Of a stretch of DNA of 64,000 nucleotides, positions 13,538-34,269 are shown in pieces. The position numbers were made by a program, and so were the translations under genes. Below the pieces are notes generated by a model. The model did no database searches, was not told where the DNA came from, and saw only the letters and a list, made by a program, of their open reading frames with translations. Source of the DNA: Candidatus Saccharimonadales bacterium (GTDB lineage Bacteria; Patescibacteriota; Saccharimonadia; Saccharimonadales; JACDFO01); assembly GCA_038255465.1 (NCBI GenBank), contig JBBSLJ010000001.1, forward strand, positions 54,274 to 118,273. Direction: 5' to 3'. Position 1 is the stretch's first letter. Each line of letters opens with the position of its first letter.

Positions 13538-14458
13538 TTAGAACGGACGTTCGCCCTGTTCGATTTTCCTGCGAAGCATTTTTAATTCGTATTTTCTGCC
13601 GAGCCAAAATGTAGATATAAGCAGTGGGATTGAAATTGCTGCCGGCTGCCATAATATTCTTGTCCGAGTCGTAGTTGTGCCAGCACCCTCTCCACTGCCT
13701 TCACCCCCATTATCCTGGCTAAGAGCACCGTTAGCGATACCTACGAGCTGCAAGAATGCCACCCCGCCGTTTCTATCAGTTGCCTTAATGATAATGTTAT
13801 ACACACCAGGGCTGTCATATTCGTGTTTAATTTCAAAGGTACCAGGAAACGCCTGACTAATAAGGTCTGGTGTTTTACCATCTCCCCAGTCTACGCTTAA
13901 GGCGTATGGACCATCACCGCCCGATATAATAATGGGCCAGGTAAGCGTTTGACCCGGATTGGCTCCACGCTTTGCAAAATTGCTGGTGAGCGAAACGCGC
14001 GAAGTAGTCCCTTGCCTGGTATCGGTATAAACCACCGTAACAATATTTGAATCAGGTCCTGGCTGATCCAGCGAATCAAAAACACGTGCTACGAGTTCGT
14101 TCTGGCCGTTAAAAAGATCTATGATAAGCGAATAGCTACCGTTCTTGCACATAACCGAACCAGCAAATACATTATTTTTAAATAATTTTACCAGCAAGTC
14201 ATTAGGACAAATACCACTTACCGTCACGGGCAGACTATTAAAACCCTGACCGTTTGCCGGGACTGTAATAGTAGCTGGCTGTGTGGGTGGAGGTGAAGAT
14301 AACGTGCCCTGAACCCCGATAGCCCCATCCTGAGGATTTGGTGATTGAGCCGAAATCGGACCAGTAAGCAGTGCCCCTAAAAGCCCGAGACCCATTAGTA
14401 TCCCAACATATCTACGCATAGTTATAGCTAGTGTACGTTTTAAGTCGCTTAAGCTCAA
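13538..14458 (-). CDS. Secreted surface protein with PKD-like domain and C-terminal TM anchor
   Basis: Signal peptide; a PKD-like segment (YALSVDWGDGKTPD...YNIIIKATDRNGG); a C-terminal hydrophobic helix followed by a basic tail. Confidence 0.6.
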   Translation of the reverse strand: MSLSDLKRTLAITMRRYVGILMGLGLLGALLTGPISAQSPNPQDGAIGVQGTLSSPPPTQPATITVPANGQGFNSLPVTVSGICPNDLLVKLFKNNVFAGSVMCKNGSYSLIIDLFNGQNELVARVFDSLDQPGPDSNIVTVVYTDTRQGTTSRVSLTSNFAKRGANPGQTLTWPIIISGGDGPYALSVDWGDGKTPDLISQAFPGTFEIKHEYDSPGVYNIIIKATDRNGGVAFLQLVGIANGALSQDNGGEGSGEGAGTTTTRTRILWQPAAISIPLLISTFWLGRKYELKMLRRKIEQGERPF

Positions 14459-14525
14459 GCGTAAACACTAAAAATAGCCGGCATTAGCTCCGGCTATATT
14501 TAGTTTTAAGTGTTTTTACGGTTAA

Positions 14526-15509
14526 CTATTTCTTCTTGAGGCCGTGTTTTGGCTTGGACAAACCGTAGCGTCTGTAAAGGTAGTAACCGCCAGCTACCAG
14601 TGCTGCAATCAATACCACGATCACGCCAATTGCCCACAAAGGAATATACCAAAAGCTGGTTGAAGCAACAATCAGCTCGCCACTGCCTTGACTGACACCA
14701 AGATTAAGGTTAATGGTGTAGCGACCCAAAAACTTTTGTTTAGGTATGGCGTCTTCAAAGCGACGGGTGCTATCAGGTAAAATGTTAGCACGAGGAGTAA
14801 CATTATTAAATTCATATTCGTGAACGACTTTACCGAACATGTCTTTGACTTGAATTTTTCCGAATGGCTGCAAATGTATATCACCACTATTTTTAATACG
14901 GGTCATGACACTTACGTCACCACCAGTTAAGAAACTTTTAGCCTTACCGTTTTGAGAAGAAGTCAACTCGATCAAATCGAGCCGCTCCGTTAGATTGCCA
15001 GGCACGCGGACAAGTATTATTGTTCCTACGCTTGCAGTAAGACCAACATTGCCGGCACCAGGAGCCGGAGCGGGCACAAAACGAATGGTGCCATAATAAC
15101 CACCGGAATTGGCATTCTCAGGTATTCGGATTGTAACTTGTATTTCTTTTTGTTCGCGAGGGCCAAGTGTCAACTCGGATGGAGTATTTACCAAAGTTTT
15201 AAAACTATTCTTTGGGGCAGGTGTACTATCATCAAGAATCAAACGCGGTTCGCCCGTTTCATTCTCACTACTAACAAAATCGTTTACTACTGGCTGTGCC
15301 ACAACTGTAGCGTCAGTAGGATTCTCTATAGTTATTGGAAACTGTTGGCTACCACCTTTTTCAATTGTAAATTCATTTCTAACAGGCGAAATTCTAAAGC
15401 CATTTCCTCCACCTGTAGTTACTTGCGCTTTACTAATCCCAGTTGCCATTACCACTAACAGCAGTATTACAGCAATCAGGCTACTAGTTCTTTTAAAAAC
15501 CGTCGTCAT
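14526..15509 (-). CDS. Cell-surface protein, DUF916/DUF3324-like architecture (signal peptide, two beta domains, C-terminal TM plus basic tail)
   Basis: 327 aa. Paralogous to the 54540..55523 product (shared ISPxxNxFT ... NPT ... DF..S.N pattern). The C-terminal TM plus KKK tail is as in Gram-positive DUF916 anchors. Confidence 0.5.
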   Translation of the reverse strand: MTTVFKRTSSLIAVILLLVVMATGISKAQVTTGGGNGFRISPVRNEFTIEKGGSQQFPITIENPTDATVVAQPVVNDFVSSENETGEPRLILDDSTPAPKNSFKTLVNTPSELTLGPREQKEIQVTIRIPENANSGGYYGTIRFVPAPAPGAGNVGLTASVGTIILVRVPGNLTERLDLIELTSSQNGKAKSFLTGGDVSVMTRIKNSGDIHLQPFGKIQVKDMFGKVVHEYEFNNVTPRANILPDSTRRFEDAIPKQKFLGRYTINLNLGVSQGSGELIVASTSFWYIPLWAIGVIVVLIAALVAGGYYLYRRYGLSKPKHGLKKK

Positions 15510-15566
15510 TAATAACCCCTTTTTATCATTAGCTTACGTCTTATAGCGCCAATATTACCATAAGGT

Positions 15567-16634
15567 TTAAAAGTTTGCCAAGCAAATAAAGGATATAGTT
15601 GTAGCATATACACCAGGCGGCTGCGCTGCATCTATATTGGCAATATAGCTAATTGTAAATTTTCGGTAGTCATTTGGTCCGGTCGAGCTGGCAACCACAT
15701 CCCCGGGCTGAAATCTATACAGATTGGGATTGTTATAGGCTGCAGTAGGCGTAGCAATGCCTGGGCCGATAGGGTTAGATCCGATTGGTGGCGAACTGTT
15801 AGCGCGTAAATTTATTCCAAACTGACTGACGCCAGTACTGGAAGGCGCCTGCGACGTTAAAGGGCTTATGGTGTTGTTCCCTGAAGTCAGCGTGGTGCCA
15901 CTAATCGAAATACTAAGACCAGAGGCAGCATTTGTAACGGCCATCATTTCTGCTTGCGCAAATTTGGTTTGCGACGTCGAAAATTCACCTAGGTCAATTA
16001 GAAAACTGTTCGCAGTAGAGCAGTCAAATCCCACGATTGTCACACTGGCACAAAATCGTAAAAATGGCGGCACCTCAGCACTAACGTTAAATTGTCTGTT
16101 AATCGACAACGCGATTCCTCCAACCTCTAAAGGAGTGCCTGTAGCGTTATCAGAGCTAAAGGTGCGCAGCCGGATATAGAACGTCCCGACATCACTAGGA
16201 TTGATAATAGTATCGAACTCGTACTCAACATCGGCTGTTGTTATAGGCGCCGGAACGCGTGTCAATATTATATTATTTGCATTGGAGTTTGCATGGATAG
16301 TAAAGCCGGTTTCACCAGTCTGGTTGATCAAGCTCGCTCCACTAGCATCAAAGCCATTTGGAGGCACGCATGCCGATTCGGGAATCGGATTATTGGAGCA
16401 GAATTCAAGCTTAACCGACCCCACAACGTCAGTGAAATTTGTAAATGTAAAGCTAAGGACGTGTGTTGAGGTGGCACCTACGGCACTATCAGACATTTTA
16501 TCGCTACGATTTAATAGTGCTGTGGCAGCAAAAACCCGCGGCACCGATTGAATAATCAGTGCCGCCGTGAAAAGAACTATGAGTAGAACTAGCTTGAGAG
16601 TACGAAAAGTATTTATTTCACTCCTTGTTTGCAT
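15567..16634 (-). CDS. Secreted Thr/Ser/Gly-rich two-domain protein, paralog family member A
   Basis: 355 aa with a signal peptide. Conserved Cys pairs (EFCSNNPIPESAC; FCASVTIVGFDC), a GTFYIR motif, and the C-terminal strand PGVYATTISFICLANF shared with the next two ORFs. Confidence 0.55.
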   Translation of the reverse strand: MQTRSEINTFRTLKLVLLIVLFTAALIIQSVPRVFAATALLNRSDKMSDSAVGATSTHVLSFTFTNFTDVVGSVKLEFCSNNPIPESACVPPNGFDASGASLINQTGETGFTIHANSNANNIILTRVPAPITTADVEYEFDTIINPSDVGTFYIRLRTFSSDNATGTPLEVGGIALSINRQFNVSAEVPPFLRFCASVTIVGFDCSTANSFLIDLGEFSTSQTKFAQAEMMAVTNAASGLSISISGTTLTSGNNTISPLTSQAPSSTGVSQFGINLRANSSPPIGSNPIGPGIATPTAAYNNPNLYRFQPGDVVASSTGPNDYRKFTISYIANIDAAQPPGVYATTISFICLANF

Positions 16635-16652
16635 AGCTCAATCATCTTAACT

Positions 16653-17882
16653 CTAGTAATTACCCGTAGCTATGAAAGTCATAGTTGCTGTGTAAATACC
16701 TGGTTCGGTTGTAGTTGCAATGTTACCAATGAACACTAGGACGCCAGTTGATTGCGCTCCAGGAGCTTTGGTGGCAATGGTGTTACCAAAGGTAGCCGAG
16801 AGGTTATTACCAGCCGTTGTAACATCGAAGGCGAACAAGGCGGCACCTGCACCACCAGGTGTGGCCGTACCGGCACTTTGTGTTGTCGCACTACACGCGC
16901 CATCATTATATGGCGCAGCTGATGTCAGTCCAGTTGCTCCACCACCCGTATCGCGGTAGGTACAGAAACCAAACTCTTCTGTGCCTGATGTACTGCTGTT
17001 TGCAGTAGCGCCCATACCGTTAATGGTAAAGCTGCCTGATGTCAGCGTCGCACCCTTGGCACGAATAGTCACGTTGTTGGAAGCATTAGTTGAAACATTG
17101 TACTTGGCGTTTTTGTCAACGAACGGTCCAGCGTCGCTTAGTACACCATTGGTGTCACCAAGCGCTACGGCCGTACCAGATACCGCGGTACAATCTGCGA
17201 AGTTAGCGGCAGAGGTGTAGACACAGAACGTTAAGCGTTCCTGAACCTTAGACGTCACGGTAATCTGAGAGGCTGTGCTCATAGCAACACCACCAGCGTG
17301 GGCCAATGGCGGCTCTGCACCGGGTGCTGTGGAAGTGTAGCTTAGTGCGCCGGCACTAGTTGTAAAAGTCAGAATACGAGCATAAAATGTCGTGTTTGAG
17401 TTAGTTGGGTTAGTAATACCGTCTGCGGCACCTGCGGCACCAAGATCAAAAGATACAGTTGTGGCTGCGGTCACGTTAGCGGCGGTACGCGTTAGAGTAA
17501 TCTGAGTTGCTGTTGAATCAGCCACGTCAATTATCCAGTCAGCAATACCAGTTTGGTTAGCAATCGCGAGGGTAGCATCATTAGTGTTGAAACCTGTTGG
17601 TACTGTACAAGTATCACCAATGATAGGGCTGTTAGCACAAAAGTCTATAACCAAACCACCGATGTTTCCAGCGCTTGGAACGACAAAACTGGTGTCATAC
17701 GTGACATCTTGACCGGCAGTACTGGCACCTGAGGCCGAACTGCTCATTTTAATTTCGCGGGCCGTGATTAGTCCGTAAGCACCTGCTTTTTGTTGAGCAA
17801 GGATTGGTACCAAGCTCGCTAAGACCAGCACGATAGCACCGGCTAAAGCACTAGGCCGTTTTATTTTTTCTGCAAAAACCAT
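16653..17882 (-). CDS. Secreted Thr/Ser/Gly-rich two-domain protein, paralog family member B
   Basis: 409 aa with a signal peptide. DFCANSPIIGDTC, FCVYTSAANFADC, TTFYARI, and the C-terminal PGIYTATMTFIATGNY. Confidence 0.55.
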   Translation of the reverse strand: MVFAEKIKRPSALAGAIVLVLASLVPILAQQKAGAYGLITAREIKMSSSASGASTAGQDVTYDTSFVVPSAGNIGGLVIDFCANSPIIGDTCTVPTGFNTNDATLAIANQTGIADWIIDVADSTATQITLTRTAANVTAATTVSFDLGAAGAADGITNPTNSNTTFYARILTFTTSAGALSYTSTAPGAEPPLAHAGGVAMSTASQITVTSKVQERLTFCVYTSAANFADCTAVSGTAVALGDTNGVLSDAGPFVDKNAKYNVSTNASNNVTIRAKGATLTSGSFTINGMGATANSSTSGTEEFGFCTYRDTGGGATGLTSAAPYNDGACSATTQSAGTATPGGAGAALFAFDVTTAGNNLSATFGNTIATKAPGAQSTGVLVFIGNIATTTEPGIYTATMTFIATGNY

Positions 17883-17996
17883 TTTAAGATTTCTCCTTTT
17901 ATTGCTTGTTTATTTTTGATAATCCAAGGTAAATTTACCATAACAGGTAAGTACTTGCAATAGCTTTCCTTTTGCAGTTATCCACAATCAATAAAG

Positions 17997-18737
17997 TTAG
18001 TATGTGCCGGTTGCAACCAAGTTATGCCGGAAAACATACTCTCCAGCCAAGGTTGTCTCGCTAATATTAAACAGGTAACTGATAGTATAGACAGTTACAC
18101 TTGAGCTCTTGCTTGAATATGCGATCGTGTCGCCCTTATTATACGTAAAACTATTAGGCGTAAGGTAATTAGCAGCTACTTGGCCGAAAGAAAAGGAGCT
18201 GTCTGGAGACTGAACTGGGTTGGTGCCGACATTAGGTGAGCTGTTATCGACTAAGTTTATACCAAATTGCTCGGTGCCTGGGGTTGAGCTACCCGGGGTT
18301 GTCATCGGATTAATCTGGTCGGTAGCACCGGATGAGTTAGTCGGAGGATCTGACTCCGTTCTTACTACGTAGCCCTCTGCCTGCCAAGCTCTGACGTAAA
18401 ATGTTCCGACCGCAGTTGACGCCGATGTCGTATTCAAATATCCCAGGTCAATATTGTTGGCTGTGACAACGAATTCGATAAATGGTTCGTCTGTGGTATT
18501 AAATCCAGCAAACGCCCTAAAGTTAGCGCTGTCAGTTTGGCCAATCGCTAACTCACCGGCCGTCTGACGTGCCCTAAAGTTAGTACTCTGTGCATCAAGC
18601 TCGCCGCCGGTCCCAAAAATTGTCTGGTCGACCCGATAATTGGTAGATGACGAGGATTGCGCCCAGACTTTTAGTGGCGCTACTACCAGCAGTAAAGTTA
18701 GCATCAATGACGTTCCCGCGTATTTGTATTTCCACAT
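17997..18737 (-). CDS. Secreted Thr/Ser-rich protein, shorter paralog C of the same family
   Basis: 246 aa with a signal peptide. GTFYVRA, EQFGINLVDNSSPNVGTNP (compare SQFGINLRANSSPPIGSNP in paralog A), and the C-terminal AGEYVFRHNLVATGTY. Confidence 0.5.
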   Translation of the reverse strand: MWKYKYAGTSLMLTLLLVVAPLKVWAQSSSSTNYRVDQTIFGTGGELDAQSTNFRARQTAGELAIGQTDSANFRAFAGFNTTDEPFIEFVVTANNIDLGYLNTTSASTAVGTFYVRAWQAEGYVVRTESDPPTNSSGATDQINPMTTPGSSTPGTEQFGINLVDNSSPNVGTNPVQSPDSSFSFGQVAANYLTPNSFTYNKGDTIAYSSKSSSVTVYTISYLFNISETTLAGEYVFRHNLVATGTY

Positions 18738-18833
18738 GATTCCTACTTAGAATACCATAACCGGCATTTGAAGGCTGTTTCTAAATGAATATATATAGTA
18801 TGCTTATGGTTAAAGTGATTAACCAGTGGTGGC

Positions 18834-19805
18834 ATGGAAGAAAATAAAGCAGATAACTCATTAGAAGAGAACTCTCTGGAAAGTCTAGAGGGAAGTTCTG
18901 CTGCGCCTGCTTCTGGTGGCGAAAACAATCAAGCACTAAAAGACCAGAAGAAAAAAAGAAGAGGCGGCGGGCTTCGTGGCCTTGCGGGCAGAGTAAACAT
19001 CTATCTGCTTTTATTTATCCTGATACTGGTCTTGGCTGGATTTGTGGTATTTATCGGCCTGCAACGAAGTAAAAAAGATCTGAGTACGCCGTCGGTTCCG
19101 ACCACACCCCTCACCCAGGAAACGTTAGATCAGCTGAACGGCAGCGATGCTTCTGTAGGTGACCCTAAACAAACATTGTCGGTTGAATCAAACGCAATAT
19201 TCAATGGCGCTGTACTGGTAAAAGGCAGTCTGGATGTAGCCGGATCAATCAAAGTAGGCGGTACGCTAAACTTGCCGGGCATTGCGGTATCTGGCTCAAG
19301 TACATTTGATCAGATAAATGCTAACCAGCTGGCCGTCTCAGGAGATACTGGCGTACAAGGTACACTTAATGTCCAAAAAAATCTGACAGTTGCGGGCTCT
19401 GCCCAATTTGGCGGACCGGTTTCAGTTCCACAGTTAACGGTACGTAACCTGGTGCTTGAGGGCGATCTAGCTATAAGCAGGCACATAGACGGTGGGGGCG
19501 GTACGCCTGGGCTTACAAGTGGTAACGCTCTTGGCGGCGGCGGTACAGCTTCGGTGGGTGGAACGGATACAGCCGGGACGTTAACCGTCAATACCGGCGG
19601 CAGTCCCAGCGCCGGTTGTTTTGCAACTATTAGTTTTGCGCAAAGTTTCAGACAAGTCCCTCATATTGTAATAACACCGGTTGGTTCAGCTGCTGCCGGA
19701 TTGAATTACTACATAACGCGCACTACGTCTAGTTTTCAGGTGTGTACAACCAATCCCGCACCTGCCGGCGCCAACTTCAGCTTCGACTGGGTCGCGATAG
19801 ACTAA
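18834..19805 (+). CDS. Membrane-anchored protein with extracytoplasmic Gly-rich beta-helix-like repeats
   Basis: 323 aa. Acidic N-terminus, a basic patch, one TM helix, then repeats of the form (V/L)xGxLxVxGxxxxxG (VKGSLDVAGSIKVGGTLNLPG...). Confidence 0.5.
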   Translation: MEENKADNSLEENSLESLEGSSAAPASGGENNQALKDQKKKRRGGGLRGLAGRVNIYLLLFILILVLAGFVVFIGLQRSKKDLSTPSVPTTPLTQETLDQLNGSDASVGDPKQTLSVESNAIFNGAVLVKGSLDVAGSIKVGGTLNLPGIAVSGSSTFDQINANQLAVSGDTGVQGTLNVQKNLTVAGSAQFGGPVSVPQLTVRNLVLEGDLAISRHIDGGGGTPGLTSGNALGGGGTASVGGTDTAGTLTVNTGGSPSAGCFATISFAQSFRQVPHIVITPVGSAAAGLNYYITRTTSSFQVCTTNPAPAGANFSFDWVAID

Positions 19806-20555: not shown

Positions 20556-20857
20556 TTAAACATCTAGGAAGACTACTACTTCATCAGCCTTAACGTGCAT
20601 TATGCCGCGCTGAATCGGAACCTTCTCTTCTCCTTGGTCGCTCCGTACAATGACCTCACCGGTATTAATGAGCGTCATGAAATTATGGTGCCTAGGCAGG
20701 ATATCGAACGGTCCGGTATCATTAACCGCTGAAATGCTCTGCGCAGCGCCGTCAAAATACACTTTAAATGGGGCATAAACCTTAACGCGCATATTTACGC
20801 CATCGCCGGCCTTGGTAGACTTTTTGTCTGCATCAGTCTTACTGCCTTGATTTGACA

Positions 20858-20858
<1 letters not shown>
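20556..20858 (-). CDS. atpC: F1 ATP synthase epsilon subunit, beta-sandwich domain only
   Basis: 100 aa. It follows the epsilon N-domain pattern (VKVYAPFKVYFDG...GPFDILPRHHNFMTLINTGEVIV) and is the last gene of the atp operon. Confidence 0.65.
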
Positions 20859-23027
<2,169 letters not shown>

Positions 23028-23031
<4 letters not shown>

Positions 23032-24593
23032 TGTTTTGCCTCCGCTGTTTCTTTGGACTCAGCGGTCGAGCTTTCAGTATCAGAACCTTTGTCTGATTTG
23101 TCTTTATGTTTTTCATCTGTTTGTTTGACGTCAGTCGGTTCAGTTGGTGTCTCTGGCTTTGGCGCGCCTTTTAACTCAAGCACGCACTTGGTTTTTAACT
23201 GCTCTCGAACCGCGTCGTATTCTTCGTCTGCCGTAACTTTGACCGCAAAATCTTTGACGTTCAGCTTCATGGAACTGATGTCAAGCTGAGCTCCGTCCTC
23301 AAGGTTAAGCACAATATCAAGCATCAACTGCTGAGACATGAGCGAGAACGTATCGCCTGGGCTTTGCGTAAATAGCTCAAACAAGCGCTTACCGGTTTCA
23401 AGCGCACGTTTAGCTTCTAGTGCAAGTTCTGAACCGAAGTGTGAGAACTCTTCTGCCTGCCGGTAATCTGCCAGCAGTTTAAGCGTTTGGGCCGCTAAAG
23501 ACTTTTGGCGTTTATTATGGCCAACACCACCGGCACGAGTCACCGACAGGCCAATATTAACTGCCGGACGGACACCATTACGAAAGATGGCCATATCCAG
23601 AATCCACTGACCGTCTGTAATAGACATGACGTTTGTTGGCAAATAAGCGGTAATGTCACCGCCCGCGGCATTAATAATTGGTATGCTGGTTAGATGCTTC
23701 TGATTCCGATCAAGCCGGCCGGCTCGCTCAAGCAATGATGAGTGGGCATAGAACATATCACCTGGGTACGAGTCACGACCAGGGCTTATTCCAGACATAA
23801 GAGCTACCTCTCGGTAGGCATGGGCATGGGCGCTCAAATCATCATAAATAATAATCGTATCCTGGTCACATTGCTGCCACAAATACTCTGCCATGGCACA
23901 GCCAATATACGGTGCCAGATAGCTTGTCATTAATGATTCAAACATGGTACTAACAACTACAATTGCTTTTTCAAGGCCACCGTTTTCTTCAAGCCCTGAA
24001 AGTAGCATGTCAACGTCAGTCCGACGTTTTGCAATCAGCACGTAGACCACAATCTGGTCAGTGTTCTTTTGGTTTATAGTCAACTGGGTAGCTAATGTGC
24101 TTTTGCCTGACTTGCTGTCACCAAGTAGCGCCATACGTTGACCGCGCACAATCGGGAAAAGCGCGTCAATGGTGGTTACACCGCTTTCCAGCTGGTCACT
24201 CAAGAGCTTGCGCTCATACAATGGCGGGGCTTGGTTAAATACCGGCCAGACTGAATCTGGCGTAATTGGCCCTTTACCGTCCAGCGGCTCACCCATAATT
24301 GAAATTACGCGTCCAATATAATTCTTGCCTACTTTACAAACAAGCTCCTGGTGCTGAACAACTGCAATCTGGCCTATCTGTAATATGGTGCTTCCAAGAT
24401 GTAATACAACCACATGATTAGGCATTACCTGGCTGACGAAGCCCTTGCTACCATCATCAAACATAATGAGCGCATTGACCGTACACGGTTGAAGCCCGTG
24501 TACCTGCACCAAAAACTTGTCTACGGCAATAACTTCGCCGACTGGCTTGCCGGCTGCAACTAGCCCTAGGAACTGTTTGTTGTCAGAATTCAC
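23028..24593 (-). CDS. atpA: F1 ATP synthase alpha subunit, with a charged C-terminal extension
   Basis: 521 aa. P-loop [11 protein letters not shown], alpha-type fold, and a Lys/Glu-rich tail. Confidence 0.9.
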
Positions 24594-25126
24594 TCGATGT
24601 CCTCTTGCGCAACCACGGGGCTTGGGTTTTTGGCACTGCGGATATTATCAATCAGAATCTGATGCTTGGCTTTGAGCGTAGTACGAAGACTGAAGTCATA
24701 GTATTTGTTTGTGGTACGCATCATAAAACCCGCGCCAATTGTAGGCTGCAAGCCGACCTGCAGCAAAATATGCGGATGAATGTTCTGACGCAAATACTCG
24801 GTCAACTTATGAATAAATGTCGTGCTGGGCTCAGTGCTAAAGCTCATATGAATTTCTGGTGCTTTTTCTAGAACTGCAGTCAGGAACTGAATGAGTGCCT
24901 TGCGCTCATTTTCTGTTAATAAGTTGACACTATTGGCAGTGACGAGCTCATCAATAATACGGGTTGTTTTTGGCAGCTTCAGCGCGGTTCCGGGTTGTCG
25001 AATAGCTGCTTGCTCTAAAAAATCATCAATAGCTGAAACCTCTTTAAGCAAACGGCCCACATCAACTTTGGTCACAATTGATATCGGCAATAAAGGCTGT
25101 TCTGACTTGCCGGCATCATGTTCCAT
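24590..25126 (-). CDS. atpH: ATP synthase delta (OSCP) subunit
   Basis: 178 aa between atpF and atpA; size and position fit, but sequence identity is weak by eye. Confidence 0.55.
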
Positions 25127-25751
25127 CAGTTAAATCCCGGATTATGGCTGCTTTATTAGACTCAAGATTCCCAATAATAAAGCTCAACTGGTCATTCAGG
25201 TCTATTTGGTCACCAATTGCAGCCAACAGGTAATGGTTAACAATCTGCCCGAGATTCTCTTCAAAACGAGCGATAATGAGCGCCTTTTCTTTGTCTACCT
25301 CTGCCTGTAGCTGATCGCCCATAGCCTGCCGTTGTTGTTCGACAGCTTCTTGAGTTTTGGCAATTGCGTCAACGGCAAGTTGTTTTGCATCGCTAATGGA
25401 TTCTTCATACTTAGTAAATGCCTCTTTCAAGCTCAGTGTGATCTCTTGCTTCATGTATTCATTGAGTTCAGACGTGGTAAGCCTAAGATCTTGCTGCAGG
25501 AACATGGCATTATCACCTATAATCTTTTCAAAATGCAGACGACCGCGGTTACGTAGCTCTTCACGGAACTCTTCATTAAACACGTGTTCAACGTCTGCTT
25601 CAGCAGCCGCCACGGCATCACCCATCAAGTCAGGCTTGCCTTTACCGGGGCCATTGACCTTAAAGGCCACCCACACAAATGCAGCGGTACACGCCATGAT
25701 GCTGGCAATTATCAGAATAAGTCCGGTGATTGTCACTGTTTCTGGTCCCAC
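25116..25751 (-). CDS. atpF: ATP synthase Fo b subunit
   Basis: 211 aa with one N-terminal TM helix followed by a long charged coiled-coil. It lies upstream of atpH. Confidence 0.65.
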   Translation of the reverse strand: MGPETVTITGLILIIASIMACTAAFVWVAFKVNGPGKGKPDLMGDAVAAAEADVEHVFNEEFREELRNRGRLHFEKIIGDNAMFLQQDLRLTTSELNEYMKQEITLSLKEAFTKYEESISDAKQLAVDAIAKTQEAVEQQRQAMGDQLQAEVDKEKALIIARFEENLGQIVNHYLLAAIGDQIDLNDQLSFIIGNLESNKAAIIRDLTDGT

Positions 25752-25767: not shown

Positions 25768-26628
25768 TTACAACTTTAGTAGTAAATATACTCCAAAAAG
25801 CCCCAAAATGAAAACTATCAGCCCGAATAAGACCACTTGAAGCATGCCTCTCATGATTGGCTTTTTAGAAAGCGGGTTACGGCCAATAGAAATAATGCCG
25901 CTCTTAACACCGCCATACATCAATGTTCCGGCTACTATGGTGCTAATTACAAATATTGCCAGACCTAAATAAACCCGTGTTGTACTAACTTCTTTGCCGG
26001 CCACAGACTCAGCCAGTTTTTTGATTTGATCAGGCAGACCAGGATCAGGGGGTCCGTAGCTTGGATTACGCGAAACACTTATATCAGCCGACACACGGCC
26101 AATATTTACGCTACGGGATGCACCGGTACTGTCTTTGACTTCGGCCTTGCCGGCCACGTTGTCTTTGCCGTTAAAATCACTTAATGCACGTCCGACGACA
26201 TGTGACTCAGTCCGGCTGGCTCGCATACCAATACCGCTCAGTGATGATATGGCAATATAGTCACCGGCTTTTATCTCTCCTTCCTGGTCACTAACAAGCA
26301 CATCGTACTTGCCGCCTGTAGCAACAAATGCTTTTTGCCCTTCTGCGGACAGTGTTACAGGTGCATCGTTCGCATCTACCACAACACCGTGCATGCTATC
26401 CATTTCTTCATACGATAGTGATACGACCTTGGTGGTATCATCTTTTTTCAATCGCACGATCATGCCGCGTTGCAGTACTTCATCAGCGCCATAGCCCTGC
26501 GTAAATGCCGTTTGGGCACCGAGCGGGCTACCTGAACTCAAGCCAATCAGTAAAAGCAACGCCGACAGCGCCATTAGCCGCGGAAAAGAGAGTAGTTTCT
26601 TGATCTTTGTTTTACTGCTTACGTACAT
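25768..26628 (-). CDS. Hypothetical membrane protein: signal-anchor, extracytoplasmic domain, C-terminal two-helix hairpin resembling an ATP synthase c subunit but without the carboxylate
   Basis: 286 aa. The last ~70 aa (GTLMYGGVKSGIISIGRNPLSKKPIMRGMLQVVLFGLIVFILGLFGVY) aligns by eye with the c-subunit GxGxGxG helix, the R(Q/N)P loop and helix 2, but helix 2 has no Asp/Glu. It occupies the slot where atpE would be. Confidence 0.5.
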   Translation of the reverse strand: MYVSSKTKIKKLLSFPRLMALSALLLLIGLSSGSPLGAQTAFTQGYGADEVLQRGMIVRLKKDDTTKVVSLSYEEMDSMHGVVVDANDAPVTLSAEGQKAFVATGGKYDVLVSDQEGEIKAGDYIAISSLSGIGMRASRTESHVVGRALSDFNGKDNVAGKAEVKDSTGASRSVNIGRVSADISVSRNPSYGPPDPGLPDQIKKLAESVAGKEVSTTRVYLGLAIFVISTIVAGTLMYGGVKSGIISIGRNPLSKKPIMRGMLQVVLFGLIVFILGLFGVYLLLKL

Positions 26629-26669
26629 TTTTGTACCTTCTGGACGTAAGTATAGCGTAAGCAGTACGA

Positions 26670-27803
26670 CTAGACAATCATTTTTGCCAACATATCGACA
26701 GTTGTCGTCACATCCTTTTCGGTCGTTGATCGGCCCATCGTAAACCGCAGTGAACTTTGGGCCTGCTCGTCGCTTAAACCAATTGCTTTTAATACATGTG
26801 ACGGTTCGTCACTACTAGCGCTGCAGGCCGAGCCTGATGCACAAATGATGCCCACTTCATCAAGCTGCATCATCAGCCGCTCATTATCCCATCCCGGAAT
26901 CCTGATATGGATAGTGCCCGGGATGACCTGTCTAGAAGCTGTAGTCAGTTCTGCAACCGGCACATTTTGTCGTAGTTGATCAATAAACAAATTTCGTAAA
27001 CTGCTAAGTCGTTTGCTCTCCTCGTGACGGATGGCTTGAGCTGAGCTCAGCGCTTCGGCAAAGCCGACAATACTGGCTGGGTTCTCGGTACCACTTCGTA
27101 CATTACGCTCTTGCCCACCCCCTAAAATTTGAGGAATGAGGCTTATGCCGGCTTTTACGTATAAAGCGCCCGACTGTTTCGGACCATATAGTTTACCAGC
27201 GTTCAATGTCATCATATCAACCCCCAGTTTATCGGCTAAAAGGTGCAGATAGTTGCCGGCTTGACAGGCATCTGTGTGGAAATAAAGCGGCAACTCATTG
27301 CCCGTTTTTTGACGCTCACGCCTGACTTCTCGTATTAACTTGGAAATTTCAGCCAACGGCTGGATCGTGCCGAGTTCGTTATTGACATACATAACGCTTA
27401 CCAGCACTGTCTGACTATCTAATGATTTCTTAACGGTTTCTACGTCCACTGTACCCGCAGGTAAAGCTGGTAATTCGTGATAATCATAGCGACGGGCGGG
27501 TTCAAGCACAGAATCGTGTTCAATCGAGCCGATGAGAACTCGAGAGTCGGGATAGTTTTGCATAATGCCGTTAATGGCTAGATTATTGGCTTCAGTACCC
27601 CCGGCTGTAAACACAACCTCACCTGGCCGAACGCCAAGAACTTGAGCTGTCGTAACTCGTGCCGCTTCTATATCTTTTTTAACTTCTTTAGCAGCTAAAT
27701 AGCCGGCCGAGGCGTTAAAATATCGGTCCGTTACATATGGCAGCATAGCCGCATATACCTCAGGCGCCAGTGGCGTTGCTGCGGCATGATCAAGATAAAT
27801 CAT
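26670..27803 (-). CDS. Cysteine desulfurase (class V aminotransferase, IscS/NifS-like)
   Basis: 377 aa. N-terminal YLDHAAATP, a PLP-lysine region and a C-terminal active-site Cys loop (ASGSACSASS). Confidence 0.85.
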   Translation of the reverse strand: MIYLDHAAATPLAPEVYAAMLPYVTDRYFNASAGYLAAKEVKKDIEAARVTTAQVLGVRPGEVVFTAGGTEANNLAINGIMQNYPDSRVLIGSIEHDSVLEPARRYDYHELPALPAGTVDVETVKKSLDSQTVLVSVMYVNNELGTIQPLAEISKLIREVRRERQKTGNELPLYFHTDACQAGNYLHLLADKLGVDMMTLNAGKLYGPKQSGALYVKAGISLIPQILGGGQERNVRSGTENPASIVGFAEALSSAQAIRHEESKRLSSLRNLFIDQLRQNVPVAELTTASRQVIPGTIHIRIPGWDNERLMMQLDEVGIICASGSACSASSDEPSHVLKAIGLSDEQAQSSLRFTMGRSTTEKDVTTTVDMLAKMIV

Positions 27804-31922: not shown

Positions 31923-32600
31923 ATGTACAAAGGTGAATATAACCCACCGATTCTAACGGTTGACACTGTTATTCTTCAGTTGATTGACAATGAGTTATTT
32001 GTTTTGTTGATACAACGTCAAAATGAGCCGTTTAAGGGCACATGGGCACTACCGGGCGCTTATAATGCTGCAGGTGAAACAACTAAAGGTGCCATGACTA
32101 GGATGCTAAAAGCTAAGGGCGGAGTCGAGATCAATGATCTTCGACTGGTTGAGCAGCTCTATACTTTTGATACGGTGGCTCGTGATCCGCGCGGCCATGC
32201 TGTTTCAGTCACCTATATGGGGCTTGGTAAGGATATTGTACCGAAAGCCAGCAAAACTACGCAGGATCCGCAGTTCTTCCCTGTTAAGATTCTCCCAAAA
32301 TTAGCCTATGATCATAAAGATATCATTGGCTATGCGCATGAGCGACTGCAATCTAAAGTAACATACACTAACGCGGTTTTTGCCTTGCTTGATCCTTTCT
32401 TTACGTTGTCTCAATTGCAAAGCGCATATGAAGCAATTTTATGTAGAGAACTTGATAAAAGAAACTTCCGTAAAAAGTTTTTAAGCCTTGATCTTATACA
32501 TGCCACTAGTGAGATGCAGCGCGAAGGCGCTCATCGTCCGGCGCGTCTTTATACCTTTAATAGTCACGAGCTAGAAAGTTTGTCTAGGAGTTTTGATTAG
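31923..32600 (+). CDS. nrtR: Nudix-related transcriptional regulator NrtR (Nudix-like ADP-ribose sensing domain plus C-terminal winged helix)
   Basis: 225 aa. The N-terminal Nudix fold lacks the full REx2EE box (ligand-binding rather than catalytic). The C-terminus (SQLQSAYEAILCRELDKRNFRKKF...RPARLYTF) matches the NrtR wHTH pattern. The gene follows nadE with a Shine-Dalgarno sequence. Confidence 0.7.
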   Translation: MYKGEYNPPILTVDTVILQLIDNELFVLLIQRQNEPFKGTWALPGAYNAAGETTKGAMTRMLKAKGGVEINDLRLVEQLYTFDTVARDPRGHAVSVTYMGLGKDIVPKASKTTQDPQFFPVKILPKLAYDHKDIIGYAHERLQSKVTYTNAVFALLDPFFTLSQLQSAYEAILCRELDKRNFRKKFLSLDLIHATSEMQREGAHRPARLYTFNSHELESLSRSFD

Positions 32601-33114
32601 CCATCAAGACTGAAAAAGCAGCCAGAACTCCAGTTCTGTATAGCTCTTCAGCTGGTAATCGACCGTCCGTCATAACACCAGAGCAATCACGGTCGATAAC
32701 TGTATGAGTTTTGTAAAGTTCTGCTACCGCATCGCTCATTTCAAGCCCGCTTTGTTCCATAAGAGTTTTCACTTTATCTGGCACAAAATGGGCCGGTGTA
32801 GTGCCGTAGCAATGATTGCCTGTGTCAACATCAATCACACAGACCCAGCCTAAGTTAAACCAGCCTTCGGGCATTACTTTTATGCCACCCTCCATACCAA
32901 CCGCGTATCTGGCAGAAGGCTTGTAACTTATGACATTCCGGGCACGGTTGTGCGCACCCATAATCATTTCTTCATCACTCATGGGTTGATCAGACACAGC
33001 GGATTTGGTGGCGAAGCCCATGATTTTTGTTTGCCCCAAATATAATTCAGGAACAGCAAGCCGCACCGCTTCTAGTTTTGTAGGGTTTTGAGATCCAACA
33101 GCGACTTCAATCAT
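32584..33114 (-). CDS. Non-canonical purine NTP phosphatase (inosine/xanthosine triphosphatase, YjjX/DUF84-like)
   Basis: 176 aa. N-terminal VAVGSQNPTKLEAV, typical of the Maf/Ham1-like YjjX family. Confidence 0.55.
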   Translation of the reverse strand: MIEVAVGSQNPTKLEAVRLAVPELYLGQTKIMGFATKSAVSDQPMSDEEMIMGAHNRARNVISYKPSARYAVGMEGGIKVMPEGWFNLGWVCVIDVDTGNHCYGTTPAHFVPDKVKTLMEQSGLEMSDAVAELYKTHTVIDRDCSGVMTDGRLPAEELYRTGVLAAFSVLMANQNS

Positions 33115-33127
33115 AATCCGACTCCTA

Positions 33128-34054
33128 TCATTTTAACAATGTGTCTATTAATGCCATTCTTATGTACAAACCGTTCTCGGTTTGCCTAAAATAAGCAGCT
33201 CTTGGGTCATGATCCACGTTAGGATGAATCTCGTCAGTTCTAGGTAATGGGTGCATAATAATTGCCTGCTCAGGGATCACCTGTAAAGCAGCTTGATCTA
33301 TAACAAACTGGTCTTCAATATTCGGGTTAATCCCCAAAGCCTCCAATCGTTCCCTCTGAATCCGAGTCCAATACACCACGTCAGCTACATGTATAGCTTC
33401 GAACATATCTTCAGTCACAGTGTACGAAACACCTTTATCCTCTAGAAAGAGTCTGACTTCATCACCTATTTGTAGTTCCGGTACAGATACAAAACTTATG
33501 TGATTATCATCGTAAAGTGCTAGCATCTGGGCAAGCGAACGAGCCGTACGCCCGCCCAATAAATCACCACCAATGACAACATTTAGCCCACTCAGACGTT
33601 CTTTCTCGCGTTTGATAGTATAAAGATCCAACAAAGCCTGTGTAGGGTGTTCGCCGTTGCCATCACCTGCGTTTATGATCGGTACACCGCTAACCGAAGC
33701 GGCGCGATCTGCAGAACCAACTTCTTTGTGTCTAAGCACAACGATATCAGCATAACCGTCCAATACCTGAACCGTGTCTTCGATTGTCTCACCCTTCACG
33801 GCTGATGAGAATTCTCCTGCGTTTTCTGTACTCAAAATACCCAGCCCGAGCCTTTGTGCGGCCGACTCAAAACTCAAGCGCGTTCTGGTTGATGGTTCAT
33901 AAAATAACGTCGCCAGCATTGAACCAACATGGCGTCCAGCTAAGTCTTGTCTTGATTCTCTATCTGATAGCAGCTCGCGCATATCATCAGCTTCTTGGAA
34001 AATTTCCGATAATGACTCAGGCGTAAATTGTTTTGCAGATAAGACATGTCTCAT
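33128..34054 (-). CDS. pyrB: Aspartate carbamoyltransferase catalytic chain
   Basis: 308 aa. STRTR carbamoyl-phosphate motif, HPTQ, and the HPLPR motif that distinguishes ATCase from OTCase. Confidence 0.85.
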   Translation of the reverse strand: MRHVLSAKQFTPESLSEIFQEADDMRELLSDRESRQDLAGRHVGSMLATLFYEPSTRTRLSFESAAQRLGLGILSTENAGEFSSAVKGETIEDTVQVLDGYADIVVLRHKEVGSADRAASVSGVPIINAGDGNGEHPTQALLDLYTIKREKERLSGLNVVIGGDLLGGRTARSLAQMLALYDDNHISFVSVPELQIGDEVRLFLEDKGVSYTVTEDMFEAIHVADVVYWTRIQRERLEALGINPNIEDQFVIDQAALQVIPEQAIIMHPLPRTDEIHPNVDHDPRAAYFRQTENGLYIRMALIDTLLK

Positions 34055-34215
34055 GATGGCCTAATTGTACGCATCTCGGCATGCATAAACAAAAACGGTT
34101 TCACTTTTCGCTCTTTAGAGCTCGCCAGCATGACTGCACATTCATGAAAGTGAACTTGGGAAAGGATAAAAAATCGGAGCTGGAGGCTCAAAAACGATTT
34201 TTTACCCGGCCTGCT

Positions 34216-34239
34216 GGCGGGGACAACATTGTCCCCGCC
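34216..34239 (-). terminator. Perfect 11-bp inverted repeat GGCGGGGACAA-ca-TTGTCCCCGCC
   Basis: Lies about 30 bp downstream of the stop of the small membrane ORF 34270..34569 (minus). The following T-run is interrupted, so its terminator function is uncertain. Confidence 0.35.
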
Positions 34240-34269
34240 ACCCGTGCCGGTCTGTAGATCGTAGACCCG

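What the first reader, a model, noticed from the sequence alone, without database searches (positions are those of the whole stretch)
25768..26628. ATP synthase operon lacks a- and c-subunit genes at the canonical position; in the atpE slot is a 286-aa protein ending in a c-subunit-like hairpin without the ion-binding carboxylate
Transcription order on the minus strand is: this gene, then atpF, atpH, atpA, atpG, atpD, atpC. No atpB or atpE candidate exists anywhere in the window, and the upstream neighbour is a cysteine desulfurase.

The 286-aa product has a signal-anchor and an extracytoplasmic domain of about 190 aa. Its C-terminus aligns by eye to the c-subunit helix 1 glycine motif, the R(Q/N)P polar loop (IGRNPLSKKP against ARQPELRP) and helix 2. 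Where the essential Asp/Glu should be, the sequence is LVFGLIVFILGLFG with no acidic residue.

Three readings are possible: a fortuitous resemblance with atpB/atpE encoded elsewhere; a degenerate c-like stator or assembly element; or a non-canonical Fo.
Basis: partly seen in the sequence, partly recalled or inferred. Interest (0 to 1): 0.6.

Follow-up and report, generated by a model that had tools for sequence, protein, structure and literature searches.

The report
Rotary ATPase with a surface-crowned c-like subunit
In this Saccharibacteria genome, and in every related locus examined, the "ATP synthase" operon has no proton-channel genes and starts with a conserved exported protein ending in a rotor-subunit-like hairpin that cannot bind ions, so the machine probably burns ATP for work at the cell surface rather than making ATP.

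Summary
On the minus strand, the 286-aa gene X (25768-26628) is followed by b-like, delta, alpha, gamma, beta and epsilon genes. Nothing in the 64 kb matches an a or c subunit.

X is not a chance ORF. It belongs to a large unnamed family (about 1,400 clusters at 50% identity). The same seven-gene order appears in every related locus long enough to show it, down to 30% identity.

The AlphaFold model (pLDDT 92) shows:
- a signal peptide;
- a beta domain folded like phage cement or decoration proteins;
- a C-terminal helical hairpin.

A family profile of the hairpin finds one PDB sequence, the Chloroflexus ATP synthase c subunit (E=0.014, same IGRNP loop). That subunit is also the best structural match. 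A reversed-sequence control finds nothing. The carboxylate position is always hydrophobic.

The F1 genes keep their catalytic motifs but score below curated ATP-synthase cut-offs.

Best reading: a c-derived, ion-blind membrane subunit of a distinct F-type-like ATPase. This resembles the mycoplasma F1-like X0 machines. The operon lies next to a probable CPR Pam-like pilus operon.

I could not check whether atpB and atpE lie elsewhere in these genomes.

The parts
25768..26628 (-). Gene X: 286-aa exported protein with a C-terminal c-subunit-like hairpin. It is the first gene of the seven-gene operon.
   Evidence: ORF. No Pfam or NCBIfam family. The family has 1,398 clusters at 50% identity with E<=1e-3. 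AF2 pLDDT is 92. It always precedes the b-like gene.
26515..26628 (-). Residues 1-38: basic N-terminus, hydrophobic helix 15-32 and a small-x-Ala site before Q39. Probably a cleaved signal peptide.
   Evidence: Helix in the AF2 model. A38 and Q39 are invariant in the close alignment. AxA-like sites recur in distant members. Cleavage itself is inferred.
26032..26514 (-). Residues 39-199: extracytoplasmic beta domain with a phage cement / decoration-protein-like fold, plus a linker.
   Evidence: Foldseek PDB: capsid cement/decoration proteins 8pkh, 8hdt, 9ocb at E 5e-5 to 1e-3. BFVD: E down to 3e-9, hits include preneck appendage, DUF2190 and Mtd-N. Distant members hit Pfam XM1_gp53_minor_capsid at E 1e-5 and Phage_cement_2 only weakly (E 0.07-0.5).
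25771..25983 (-). Residues 216-286: two-helix transmembrane hairpin that resembles an F-type c subunit but lacks the carboxylate.
   Evidence: AF2 helices 216-250 and 252-285. Foldseek: Chloroflexus c subunit 9itt_I, TM 0.91, rmsd 1.0 A, 21% identity; A. woodii c2, 26% identity. Profile A9 against PDB gives one hit, 9itj_H subunit c, E=0.014. The reversed control gives 0 hits. No conserved acidic residue.
25873..25884 (-). G249-R250-N251-P252: invariant cytoplasmic loop. Proposed docking site for the gamma/epsilon foot.
   Evidence: Invariant in 49 diverse sequences. GRNP is present in 261 of 262 members that cover the loop. The same IGRNP pentapeptide occurs in the Chloroflexus c subunit. The docking role is inferred from the known role of the c-subunit RQP loop.
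25116..25751 (-). b-like peripheral-stalk candidate: one N-terminal TM helix, then about 170 residues of long helices. It carries an almost invariant juxtamembrane motif, FNDEFREELRNRGRLHFEKIIGENAMFLQQDLRLTTSQ.
   Evidence: AF2 helices 4-32, 42-88, 93-180 and 186-209 (pLDDT 68). Only weak NCBIfam atpF hits, E 0.046. No PDB or Foldseek match. The family has 5,656 members. Motif conservation.
24590..25126 (-). delta/OSCP homologue.
   Evidence: Pfam OSCP E 7.7e-4, below the cut-off. TIGR01145 E 2e-5. Family profile A6 against PDB: OSCP/delta subunits are the top hits, from E 4e-4.
23028..24593 (-). alpha-like subunit (521 aa) with a low-complexity C-terminal tail.
   Evidence: ATP-synt_ab E 3e-66. 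atpA models score 380-382 bits against cut-offs of 484-554. The P-loop and the SxxR arginine-finger motif are present in 74/74 loci.
22162..23031 (-). gamma subunit (289 aa).
   Evidence: PF00231 E 6e-31. TIGR01146 scores 91 bits against a cut-off of 194.
20858..22165 (-). beta-like catalytic subunit (435 aa).
   Evidence: ATP-synt_ab E 6e-63. atpD scores 410.6 bits against a cut-off of 462.85. GGAGVGKT, GERxREG, the Walker-B DN and YVPADD motifs are present in at least 62 of 70 loci.
20556..20858 (-). epsilon subunit, beta-sandwich domain only (100 aa). It has no C-terminal inhibitory helices.
   Evidence: PF02823 E 2e-14. TIGR01216 scores 45.5 bits against a cut-off of 67.
26649..26677 (-). 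Weak sigma-70-like promoter match (TTGTCT-17-TATACT) upstream of X, followed by a GAAGG ribosome-binding site.
   Evidence: The number of such sites in the region is not above the shuffled expectation, so this is only a candidate.
13538..19805 (.). Neighbouring block conserved next to the operon: a convergent 323-aa membrane-anchored beta-helix protein (18834-19805, +) and five signal-peptide proteins (13538-18737, -). Probably a Pam-type CPR pilus operon. Its link to the ATPase is hypothetical.
   Evidence: Pfam: Bactofilin-like, WxLIP_PGBD/fn3_5 and Glucodextran_B. Homologues follow epsilon in 45 of 46 loci that have at least 4 kb of flank. The preprint 10.64898/2026.03.03.709456 reports pam operons co-localised with ATP synthase genes across CPR. 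No PDB match, so identity with PamA/B is unverified.

Best explanation
X is a c-subunit-derived membrane subunit of a distinct, conserved seven-gene F-type-like rotary ATPase of Saccharimonadia. The gene order is X, b-like, delta, alpha, gamma, beta, epsilon.

After export and probable signal-peptide cleavage, X has the topology of a c subunit: N-terminus outside, helix 1, a basic cytoplasmic loop, helix 2, C-terminus outside. Unlike a c subunit, it carries a 160-residue phage-cement-like beta domain on its outer end.

Several copies probably pack through the small-residue faces of both helices into a ring or bundle. The invariant GRNP loops would form the cytoplasmic platform that binds the gamma/epsilon foot. 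The ectodomains would form a crown on the outer face of the membrane. The b-like protein and delta would hold the alpha3beta3 head.

X has no membrane-embedded carboxylate and the operon has no a subunit. X therefore cannot carry H+ or Na+, and the complex would work as an ATP-consuming motor or actuator. Its torque or conformational change would be delivered to the cell surface, as proposed for mycoplasma F1-like X0 ATPases. A possible target is the adjacent pilus-like operon.

**Shown:** gene order and its conservation; the fold of X; loop invariance; absence of a carboxylate; retention of the F1 catalytic motifs; delta homology.

**Inferred:** signal-peptide cleavage; oligomerisation; gamma/epsilon docking; rotation; lack of ion coupling at the level of the whole cell; the surface target.
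For: - **Operon conservation.** The order X, b, delta, alpha, gamma, beta, epsilon appears in all loci long enough to show it (80 GTDB species loci plus 6 others). Median intergenic gaps are -11 to +28 bp, and the order holds down to 30-32% identity of X, where the upstream gene differs.
- **Link to c subunits.**
  - Foldseek TM 0.91 and rmsd 1.0 A on the Chloroflexus c subunit.
  - The hairpin profile hits only that c subunit in 177,635 PDB sequences (E=0.014, ungapped over 43 residues, identical IGRNP).
  - A narrower profile hit only two c subunits.
  - The reversed control hit nothing.
- **Loop and size constraints.** GRNP is present in 261 of 262 members, and the tail after the loop is fixed at 34 residues in 254 of 261. 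This is what a constrained protein-protein interface would look like.
- **No ion site.** The carboxylate-equivalent position is hydrophobic. The only recurrent polar position (264) takes Q, E, K or R, so it is an interface position, not an ion site.
- **No a or c subunit** in the window or in about 1.6 Mb of related loci.
- **A divergent but active lineage.** The F1 genes keep their catalytic motifs yet all score below the curated ATP-synthase cut-offs. By contrast, the Saccharibacterium Southlakia has a textbook atpI-B-E-F-H-A-G-D-C operon whose b, c and a subunits hit Pfam strongly.
- **Literature parallels.**
  - Mycoplasma type 2/3 F1-like X0 clusters contain a subunit with a signal peptide, an ectodomain and two C-terminal TM helices.
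  - Omnitrophota have 'non-respiratory' F-type ATPases whose beta subunits cluster with those of Saccharimonadia.
  - WWE3 and OP11 ATPase operons were reported to have unrecognisable a/b/c genes and a shared TM protein.
Against: - Pfam ATP-synt_C does not hit X or its hairpin.
- My own c-subunit HMM scores X at noise level.
- hhalign against seven c subunits gives only P of about 0.004-0.013 and 3-8% probability.
- A helical hairpin is a simple fold that can arise convergently.
- Oligomeric state and contact with gamma/epsilon were not tested, because no multimer prediction tool was available.
- Phage cement proteins usually form trimers, which fits a small bundle better than a large ring.
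- The rest of these genomes could not be searched, so atpB and atpE elsewhere are not excluded.
- The b-like assignment rests only on architecture and gene position.
- The neighbouring pilus-like genes may simply reflect conserved gene order within one order of bacteria.
Confidence: 0.5

Rival explanations
1. Split conventional ATP synthase. The genome encodes normal atpB and atpE elsewhere. The F1, b and delta genes here pair with them. X is an extra subunit, assembly factor or regulator (in the manner of AtpI/AtpZ) that happens to sit first in the operon.
For: - The whole genome could not be inspected.
- Some Saccharibacteria, such as Southlakia, have canonical a and c genes.
- Pfam ATP-synt_C does not recognise X.
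Against: - In known split atp operons, the b genes travel with a and c. This rests on established knowledge of alphaproteobacterial, cyanobacterial and chloroplast operons. Here the b-like gene stays with F1.
- Every F1 subunit, and the b-like protein, is too divergent for the curated ATP-synthase models. Southlakia's canonical subunits are recognised easily.
- X occupies the atpE slot with tight spacing in all loci.
- X has the c-subunit loop.
Confidence: 0.2
2. Static membrane tether. X does not form a rotor. Its hairpin and ectodomain anchor or position an F1-like ATPase at the membrane, for example as part of a stator or an envelope-spanning scaffold. The gamma/epsilon pair acts on some other partner.
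For: - Authors of the mycoplasma study suggested that the analogous subunit (signal peptide, ectodomain, two TM helices) could play a stalk role. In that system gamma/epsilon are predicted to sit on a separate 12-TM protein.
- Cement-type domains typically form trimers (plus general knowledge).
- Sequence support for c-subunit homology is only borderline.
Against: - This operon has no 12-TM or other polytopic protein that gamma/epsilon could bind. X and the single-TM b-like protein are the only membrane components.
- A delta homologue and a b-like protein already provide a stalk.
- The most conserved part of X is the cytoplasmic loop, in the position where c subunits contact gamma/epsilon.
Confidence: 0.2
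3. Coincidence. X is an unrelated secreted membrane protein whose hairpin only looks like a c subunit and which is merely co-transcribed with the ATPase genes.
For: - No curated family model recognises X.
- hhalign probabilities are low.
Against: - Linkage is complete across all loci and deep divergence, while the flanking genes change.
- The only PDB sequence hits are c subunits, and the reversed control is empty.
- The topology, hairpin length and loop motif all match a c subunit.
Confidence: 0.05

Closest known systems
F-type ATP synthase c subunit (AtpE, Pfam PF00137), in particular the Chloroflexus aurantiacus c subunit (PDB 9itj/9itt)
   Same: - Two-helix hairpin of the same length.
- N-out, loop-in, C-out topology.
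- Basic cytoplasmic loop with the identical IGRNP sequence.
- Small-residue packing faces on the helices.
- The gene sits immediately before the b-type gene of an alpha/gamma/beta/epsilon operon.
   Different: - No ion-binding Asp or Glu; the position is Leu/Ile/Val/Phe/Met in 242 of 261 members and acidic in one.
- No GxGxGxG motif.
- Not recognised by PF00137.
- Carries a signal peptide and a 160-residue extracytoplasmic beta domain.
- No partner a subunit gene.
Mycoplasma type 2 / type 3 'F1-like X0' ATPases (M. mobile gliding motor; MIB-MIP-associated ATPase of M. mycoides)
   Same: - Seven-gene cluster with alpha-, beta-, gamma- and epsilon-like genes and no a or c subunits.
- One subunit built as signal peptide, then ectodomain, then two C-terminal TM helices (MMOB1650 / MMCAP2_0577).
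- ATP hydrolysis used for a cell-surface task rather than for energy conservation.
- NCBIfam models of these families do hit the window's alpha and beta.
   Different: - The mycoplasma clusters have a 12-TM protein and a small cytoplasmic protein, and lack b and delta. This operon has b-like and delta genes and no polytopic protein.
- Scores are far below the family cut-offs (359.8 against 570 for beta, 263 against 520 for alpha).
- X shows no sequence match to any NCBIfam model of those clusters.
- The gene order differs.
'Non-respiratory' F-type ATPase homologues of Omnitrophota (Seymour et al. 2023, PMC10066038)
   Same: - Described as a divergent F-type ATPase in ultrasmall, probably host-dependent bacteria.
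- Its beta subunit was reported to cluster with 'Ca. Saccharimonadia' sequences.
- It is genomically associated with a pilus system.
   Different: - The Omnitrophota clusters lie next to type IVa pili. Here no type IV pilus genes lie within the window, and the neighbour is a Pam-like operon.
- The membrane subunits of the Omnitrophota clusters were not described, so I could not check whether they have an X-like protein.
WWE3/OP11 ATPase operons noted by Kantor et al. 2013 (PMC3812714)
   Same: An operon with recognisable alpha, beta, gamma and epsilon genes, plus three adjacent genes with no homology to a, b or c. These include a transmembrane 'putative c' protein shared between CPR lineages. 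This description fits X, b-like and delta-like.
   Different: - Only one paragraph was published, with no sequence analysis.
- I could not obtain those sequences to test whether the TM protein belongs to the X family.
V-ATPase rotor-associated subunits with luminal domains (Ac45/ATP6AP1, Voa1)
   Same: A precedent, from established structural knowledge, for a rotary-ATPase membrane ring that carries a sizeable domain on the non-cytoplasmic side.
   Different: - Those are single-pass accessory proteins sitting inside a normal proton-carrying c-ring.
- They are not ring protomers.
- They show no relation to X in sequence or fold. This point was not tested here.

Membership tests
F-type ATP synthase c subunit (PF00137 / AtpE) | Two-helix transmembrane hairpin with N- and C-termini outside and a polar loop in the cytoplasm | tested here: met
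   AF2 helices 216-250 and 252-285. Foldseek TM 0.84-0.91 on Chloroflexus c subunits. A signal peptide precedes the ectodomain, and the loop carries four basic residues. Topology is inferred from the positive-inside rule.
F-type ATP synthase c subunit (PF00137 / AtpE) | Conserved R-(Q/N)-P loop that contacts gamma/epsilon | tested here: met
   GRNP is present in 261 of 262 members and invariant in alignments A4 and A9. The same IGRNP occurs in PDB 9itj_H. Contact with gamma/epsilon was not tested.
F-type ATP synthase c subunit (PF00137 / AtpE) | Membrane-embedded ion-binding carboxylate in helix 2 | tested here: not met
   The aligned position (L270) is L 62%, I 12%, V 8%, F 6%. Only 1 of 261 sequences is acidic there. 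No other conserved acidic residue lies in the membrane.
F-type ATP synthase c subunit (PF00137 / AtpE) | Significant match to the family profile | tested here: not met
   No PF00137 hit at E<=1 for the whole protein, or at E<=10 for 16 hairpins. My own c-subunit HMM gives E=6. hhalign probability is 3-8%. The reverse direction is borderline positive: the X profile hits a c subunit at E=0.014.
F-type ATP synthase c subunit (PF00137 / AtpE) | Glycine-rich helix-1 packing motif (GxGxGxG) | tested here: inconclusive
   The motif itself is absent. A stripe of small residues at 222, 229, 233/234, 239/240, 243/244 and 247 (62-100% G/A/S) is present instead.
F-type ATP synthase c subunit (PF00137 / AtpE) | Assembles into a homo-oligomeric ring | not testable with these tools
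   Only single-chain prediction was available.
Canonical F1Fo ATP synthase operon | a subunit (PF00119) with the essential Arg, encoded with or near c and b | tested here: not met
   Absent from the window and from all related loci of up to 20 kb.
Canonical F1Fo ATP synthase operon | alpha, beta, gamma, delta and epsilon reach the curated equivalog scores | tested here: not met
   Scores against cut-offs: beta 410.6 / 462.85; alpha 380 / 484.45; gamma 91.2 / 194.45; delta 24.9 / 57.5; epsilon 45.5 / 67.25. Homology itself is clear.
Canonical F1Fo ATP synthase operon | b subunit (PF00430) | tested here: inconclusive
   No PF00430 hit. NCBIfam atpF E=0.046. No PDB or Foldseek match. The architecture (TM helix plus long helices) and gene position fit a b subunit.
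Mycoplasma type 2/3 F1-like X0 ATPase | alpha/beta reach the MSC_0618 / MSC_0619 or MMOB1660 / MMOB1670 family scores | tested here: not met
   Scores against cut-offs: 359.8 / 570 and 263.2 / 520; 319 / 850 and 321 / 600.
Mycoplasma type 2/3 F1-like X0 ATPase | Cluster contains a 12-TM protein and lacks b and delta | tested here: not met
   No polytopic protein in the operon. A delta homologue is present.
Mycoplasma type 2/3 F1-like X0 ATPase | Subunit with a signal peptide, an ectodomain and two C-terminal TM helices | tested here: met
   The architecture of X matches the description of MMCAP2_0577 / MMOB1650. No sequence similarity was detectable through NCBIfam. The sequences could not be compared directly.
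N-ATPase (alternate F1Fo, atpDCQRBEFAG) | alt_F1F0 family scores, the AtpQ/AtpR genes, and a and c genes in the operon | tested here: not met
   Scores against cut-offs: 363.7 / 752 (beta), 313 / 750.5 (alpha), 34.4 / 282 (gamma). The gene order differs and there are no a or c genes.

The most novel reading that the evidence does not exclude
Many environmental Saccharimonadia, and perhaps other CPR lineages, have no proton-coupled ATP synthase. What is annotated as one would instead be an ATP-driven rotary actuator. A ring of X, a c subunit that has lost its ion site and gained a phage-cement-like ectodomain, would be turned by F1 and would transmit torque across the membrane to a crown on the cell surface. 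This could serve the adjacent donor-strand-exchange (Pam-like) pilus, which has no known assembly or anchoring motor.
Probability: 0.25. Interest if true: 0.9.

Novelty: new variant of a known kind. Interest (0 to 1): 0.68.

Why it matters
**Consequence for CPR physiology.** Reviews and metabolic reconstructions assume that Saccharimonadia use their 'F-type ATPase' to make ATP from a proton gradient, or to pump protons. If the operon described here is the only one in these genomes, that assumption fails for a large group of CPR bacteria. Their energy budget would then rest on substrate-level phosphorylation alone.

**Consequence for rotary ATPases.** This would be a second, independent lineage besides the mycoplasma F1-like X0 machines in which an F1 motor is re-used for work at the cell surface. 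It has two advantages for study:
- The membrane partner is still recognisably c-like, which gives a direct structural hypothesis (a ring with an outer crown).
- A peripheral stalk is retained.

**Why it can be tested.**
- The family is large and conserved.
- It occurs in cultivable relatives.
- It lies beside a newly described CPR pilus operon.

The hypothesis can therefore be tested by cryo-EM or cryo-ET and by genetics.

Tried and rejected
**Tools or look-ups that failed**
- Exact-match look-up of the window's own X protein: not on record.
The closer alignment worked.
It was repeated with database homologues.

**Searches that found nothing useful**
- Foldseek on the b-like model returned nothing. 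A profile search of PDB returned no b subunit.
- PHROGs gave only marginal hits.
- PDB has no match to the two putative pilins.
- The full-length X profile against PDB gave only a spurious cAMP-binding-domain hit at E=0.05.

**Ideas tested and dropped**
- A type IV pilus cluster next to the ATPase, as in Omnitrophota. None is present; the neighbours are housekeeping genes plus the Pam-like block.
- Q264 as a substitute ion site. Rejected because the position also takes K and R and lies near the membrane boundary.
- The two other multi-TM ORFs (11636-12310 and 62333-63346) as hidden a subunits. Neither has a Pfam hit, and neither is linked to the operon.

**Literature**
Searches for an explicit description of this subunit found only passing remarks.

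**Not achieved**
I had no means to search the rest of any X-bearing genome for atpB and atpE.
Full report
**What is in the window**

The minus strand carries a tight run of seven genes:
- X, 25768-26628, 286 aa;
- a 211-aa protein, 25116-25751;
- a 178-aa protein, 24590-25126;
- alpha, 23028-24593;
- gamma, 22162-23031;
- beta, 20858-22165;
- a 100-aa epsilon, 20556-20858.

Pfam recognises alpha, beta, gamma and the epsilon beta-sandwich. It recognises the 178-aa protein only weakly as OSCP, and finds nothing for X or the 211-aa protein. The upstream gene is a class-V aminotransferase / cysteine desulfurase.

The organism is a Saccharibacterium (CPR). The identical X protein and its closest relatives come from Candidatus Saccharibacteria / Saccharimonadales assemblies.

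**No a or c subunit in 64 kb**

- Pfam scans of 58 ORFs, including all multi-TM ORFs, gave no ATP-synt_A or ATP-synt_C hit.
- A c-subunit HMM run without filters on all 668 stop-to-stop ORFs found nothing.
- tblastn with E. coli a and c, PS3 c and Ilyobacter c found nothing in the window or in any related locus.

**X is a real, conserved gene tied to the operon**

- X has more than 1,589 relatives in the 90%-clustered database. All are unnamed and, among the 120 closest relatives listed, none carries a precomputed Pfam domain.
- It has 1,398 cluster representatives at 50% identity with E<=1e-3.
- A scan of GTDB species genomes returned 171 relatives. The best 80 loci are all Saccharibacteria MAGs.
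- In every locus that extends past X, the order cysteine desulfurase, X, b-like, delta-like, alpha, gamma, beta, epsilon is kept.
- Median intergenic gaps run from -11 to +28 bp.
- Members at only 30-35% identity sit in the same operon. In L082 the upstream gene is different.
- One lineage (L087) has two X paralogues, one at each end of the operon.

**Structure of X**

AlphaFold2 with 49 diverse sequences gives a confident model (pLDDT 92):
- helix 15-32;
- a beta domain, residues 43-187;
- a short helix, 200-210;
- a hairpin, 216-250 and 252-285.

The N-terminal helix is followed by small-x-Ala sites throughout the family. I therefore read it as a cleaved signal peptide rather than an anchor. 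This is an inference.

The beta domain resembles phage capsid cement/decoration proteins:
- In PDB, Foldseek gives E from 5e-5 to 1e-3.
- In BFVD, many phage structural proteins match at E down to 3e-9.
- Distant family members approach the Pfam threshold for XM1_gp53_minor_capsid (E about 1e-5, just under the cut-off); Phage_cement_2 appears only at noise level (E 0.07-0.5).

**Is the hairpin a c subunit?**

Evidence against, at the sequence level:
- PF00137 does not hit.
- My seven-sequence c-subunit HMM does not hit.
- hhalign is weak: P 0.004-0.013, probability 3-8%.

Evidence for:
- A 16-sequence hairpin profile searched against 177,635 PDB sequences returned only two hits, both F-type c subunits.
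- A 76-sequence profile returned a single hit, the Chloroflexus aurantiacus c subunit. The E-value is 0.014, the alignment is ungapped over 43 residues, and the IGRNP loop is identical.
- The same profile built from reversed sequences returned nothing.
- That same c subunit is the best structural match to the hairpin: TM 0.91, rmsd 1.0 A over 67 residues, 21% identity.
- Hairpin length, loop position and topology coincide with those of c subunits (global alignment).

I conclude that derivation from a c subunit is likely but not proven.

**No ion site**

- GRNP occurs in 261 of the 262 family members that cover the loop.
- The tail after the loop is 34 residues in 254 of 261 members.
- The position aligned to the c-subunit carboxylate is Leu, Ile, Val, Phe or Met in 242 of 261.
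- The only recurrent polar position, 264, takes Q (215), E (15), K (11) or R (8). It lies three or four residues into the membrane, so it is an interface residue and not an ion site.
- Both helices carry a stripe of small residues, which suits tight helix packing.

**The rest of the operon**

- The delta-like family profile finds OSCP/delta subunits as its top PDB hits, from E 4e-4.
- The b-like protein is one TM helix followed by very long helices. It matches no b-subunit model, apart from an NCBIfam hit at E=0.046.
- The b-like protein has an unusually invariant juxtamembrane segment.
- Alpha and beta keep the P-loops, the catalytic Glu motif, the Walker-B motif and the arginine finger across loci.
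- Every F1 subunit nevertheless scores below NCBI's equivalog cut-offs. Each also hits the mycoplasma F1-like and N-ATPase models, again below their cut-offs.

By contrast, the cultivated Saccharibacterium Southlakia has a textbook atpI-B-E-F-H-A-G-D-C operon. Its a, c and b subunits hit Pfam strongly, and all of these genes are dispensable. The operon here is therefore a separate lineage, not a decayed copy of that one.

**Literature**

- Kantor et al. 2013 noted a WWE3 ATPase operon with three adjacent genes unrelated to a, b and c, and a 'putative c' TM protein shared with OP11.
- Seymour et al. 2023 described 'non-respiratory' F-type ATPase homologues in Omnitrophota. Their beta subunits cluster with those of Saccharimonadia, and the clusters lie next to pili.
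- Mycoplasma type 2/3 F1-like X0 clusters have seven genes, with no a, c, b or delta. They include a subunit with a signal peptide, an ectodomain and two C-terminal TM helices, and they are needed for gliding or for antibody cleavage.
- I found no description of the X family itself.

**Neighbourhood**

Beyond epsilon (at lower coordinates) the window has, in order:
- a TauE-type gene on the plus strand;
- a 323-aa beta-helix protein on the plus strand, convergent with the operon;
- five signal-peptide proteins on the minus strand, one of them with an Ig-like WxLIP domain and a C-terminal TM helix.

Homologues of these follow the operon in 45 of 46 loci with enough flank. This block fits the published description of a pam operon. 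I could not verify that by sequence. The association may also reflect conserved synteny alone.

**Interpretation**

The best-supported model is as follows:
- X is the c-derived membrane partner of a distinct F-type-like ATPase.
- Its invariant loop docks gamma/epsilon.
- Its ectodomains form an outer crown.
- The b-like protein and delta form the stalk.
- Because there is no carboxylate and no a subunit, ATP hydrolysis is not coupled to ion flow through X. It is used instead for mechanical or structural work at the surface.

Confidence is about 0.5 for the whole chain. It is higher (about 0.75) for the narrower claim that X is the membrane subunit of this complex in the place of c.

The main rival (0.2) is a split conventional enzyme with atpB and atpE elsewhere. 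I could not exclude it because only 20-kb loci are readable. A static-tether role (0.2) and pure coincidence (0.05) remain.

**Verdict**

- This is a new variant of a known kind, the F1-like ATPases with non-canonical membrane parts.
- Interest is 0.68. The finding challenges the routine annotation of PMF-coupled ATP synthesis in a large CPR group and offers a concrete, testable structure.

Noticed in passing
window 13538-19805: A block of five signal-peptide proteins (306, 327, 355, 409 and 246 aa; the 327-aa one has WxLIP_PGBD/fn3 domains and a C-terminal TM helix) plus a convergent 323-aa bactofilin-like beta-helix protein. It fits the recently described CPR Pam pilus operon and 'tail fibre-like' gene. 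Homologues follow the ATPase operon in 45 of 46 related loci.
   Followed up: partly
L087:4235-5023 and L087:10001-10795: One lineage has two X paralogues flanking the operon. The upstream copy has an altered loop (QRNP preceded by acidic residues). The downstream copy overlaps the end of epsilon by 8 nt. This hints at a mixed oligomer.
   Followed up: partly
window 25116-25751 (residues 53-100): The b-like protein has a nearly invariant segment just inside the membrane, FNDEFREELRNRGRLHFEKIIGENAMFLQQDLRLTTSQ. It is far more conserved than the corresponding part of ordinary b subunits. It may replace contacts normally made with subunit a.
   Followed up: no
window 32600-45800: About 13 kb lies between the NrtR-type regulator and the isochorismatase/NAPRTase genes, which are adjacent in the related locus L001. 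The stretch includes a 57% GC block at 36.6-41.3 kb (background is about 46%) with an adenylosuccinate-synthetase-like gene, a SAM-domain protein and several unknowns, plus an ADP-ribosylglycohydrolase. It is possibly an acquired island.
   Followed up: no
window 60250-62170: A 527-aa serine recombinase gene (plus strand) overlaps the end of the tmRNA gene (61784-62170, minus strand). The flanking 56-62 kb is low in GC (40-42%). This suggests an integrated element at the tmRNA locus. ARAGORN missed the tmRNA that Rfam found.
   Followed up: no
L088:8452-13163: In a 725-kb NCBI contig, the cysteine desulfurase, X (109 + 153 aa) and alpha (280 + 196 aa) are each split into fragments. This is either decay of the operon in that lineage or indel errors in the assembly.
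   Followed up: no
window 23028-23180 (alpha residues ~470-521): The alpha subunit ends in a lysine-, glutamate-, serine- and threonine-rich low-complexity tail. The tail is absent from many orthologues; alpha length ranges from 472 to 613 aa across loci.
   Followed up: no
window 54540-55523: A second 327-aa protein has an N-terminal signal/TM segment, a bacterial Ig-like domain and a C-terminal TM helix. This is the same build as the chaperone-like protein in the pilus-like block, but it lies 35 kb away.
   Followed up: no
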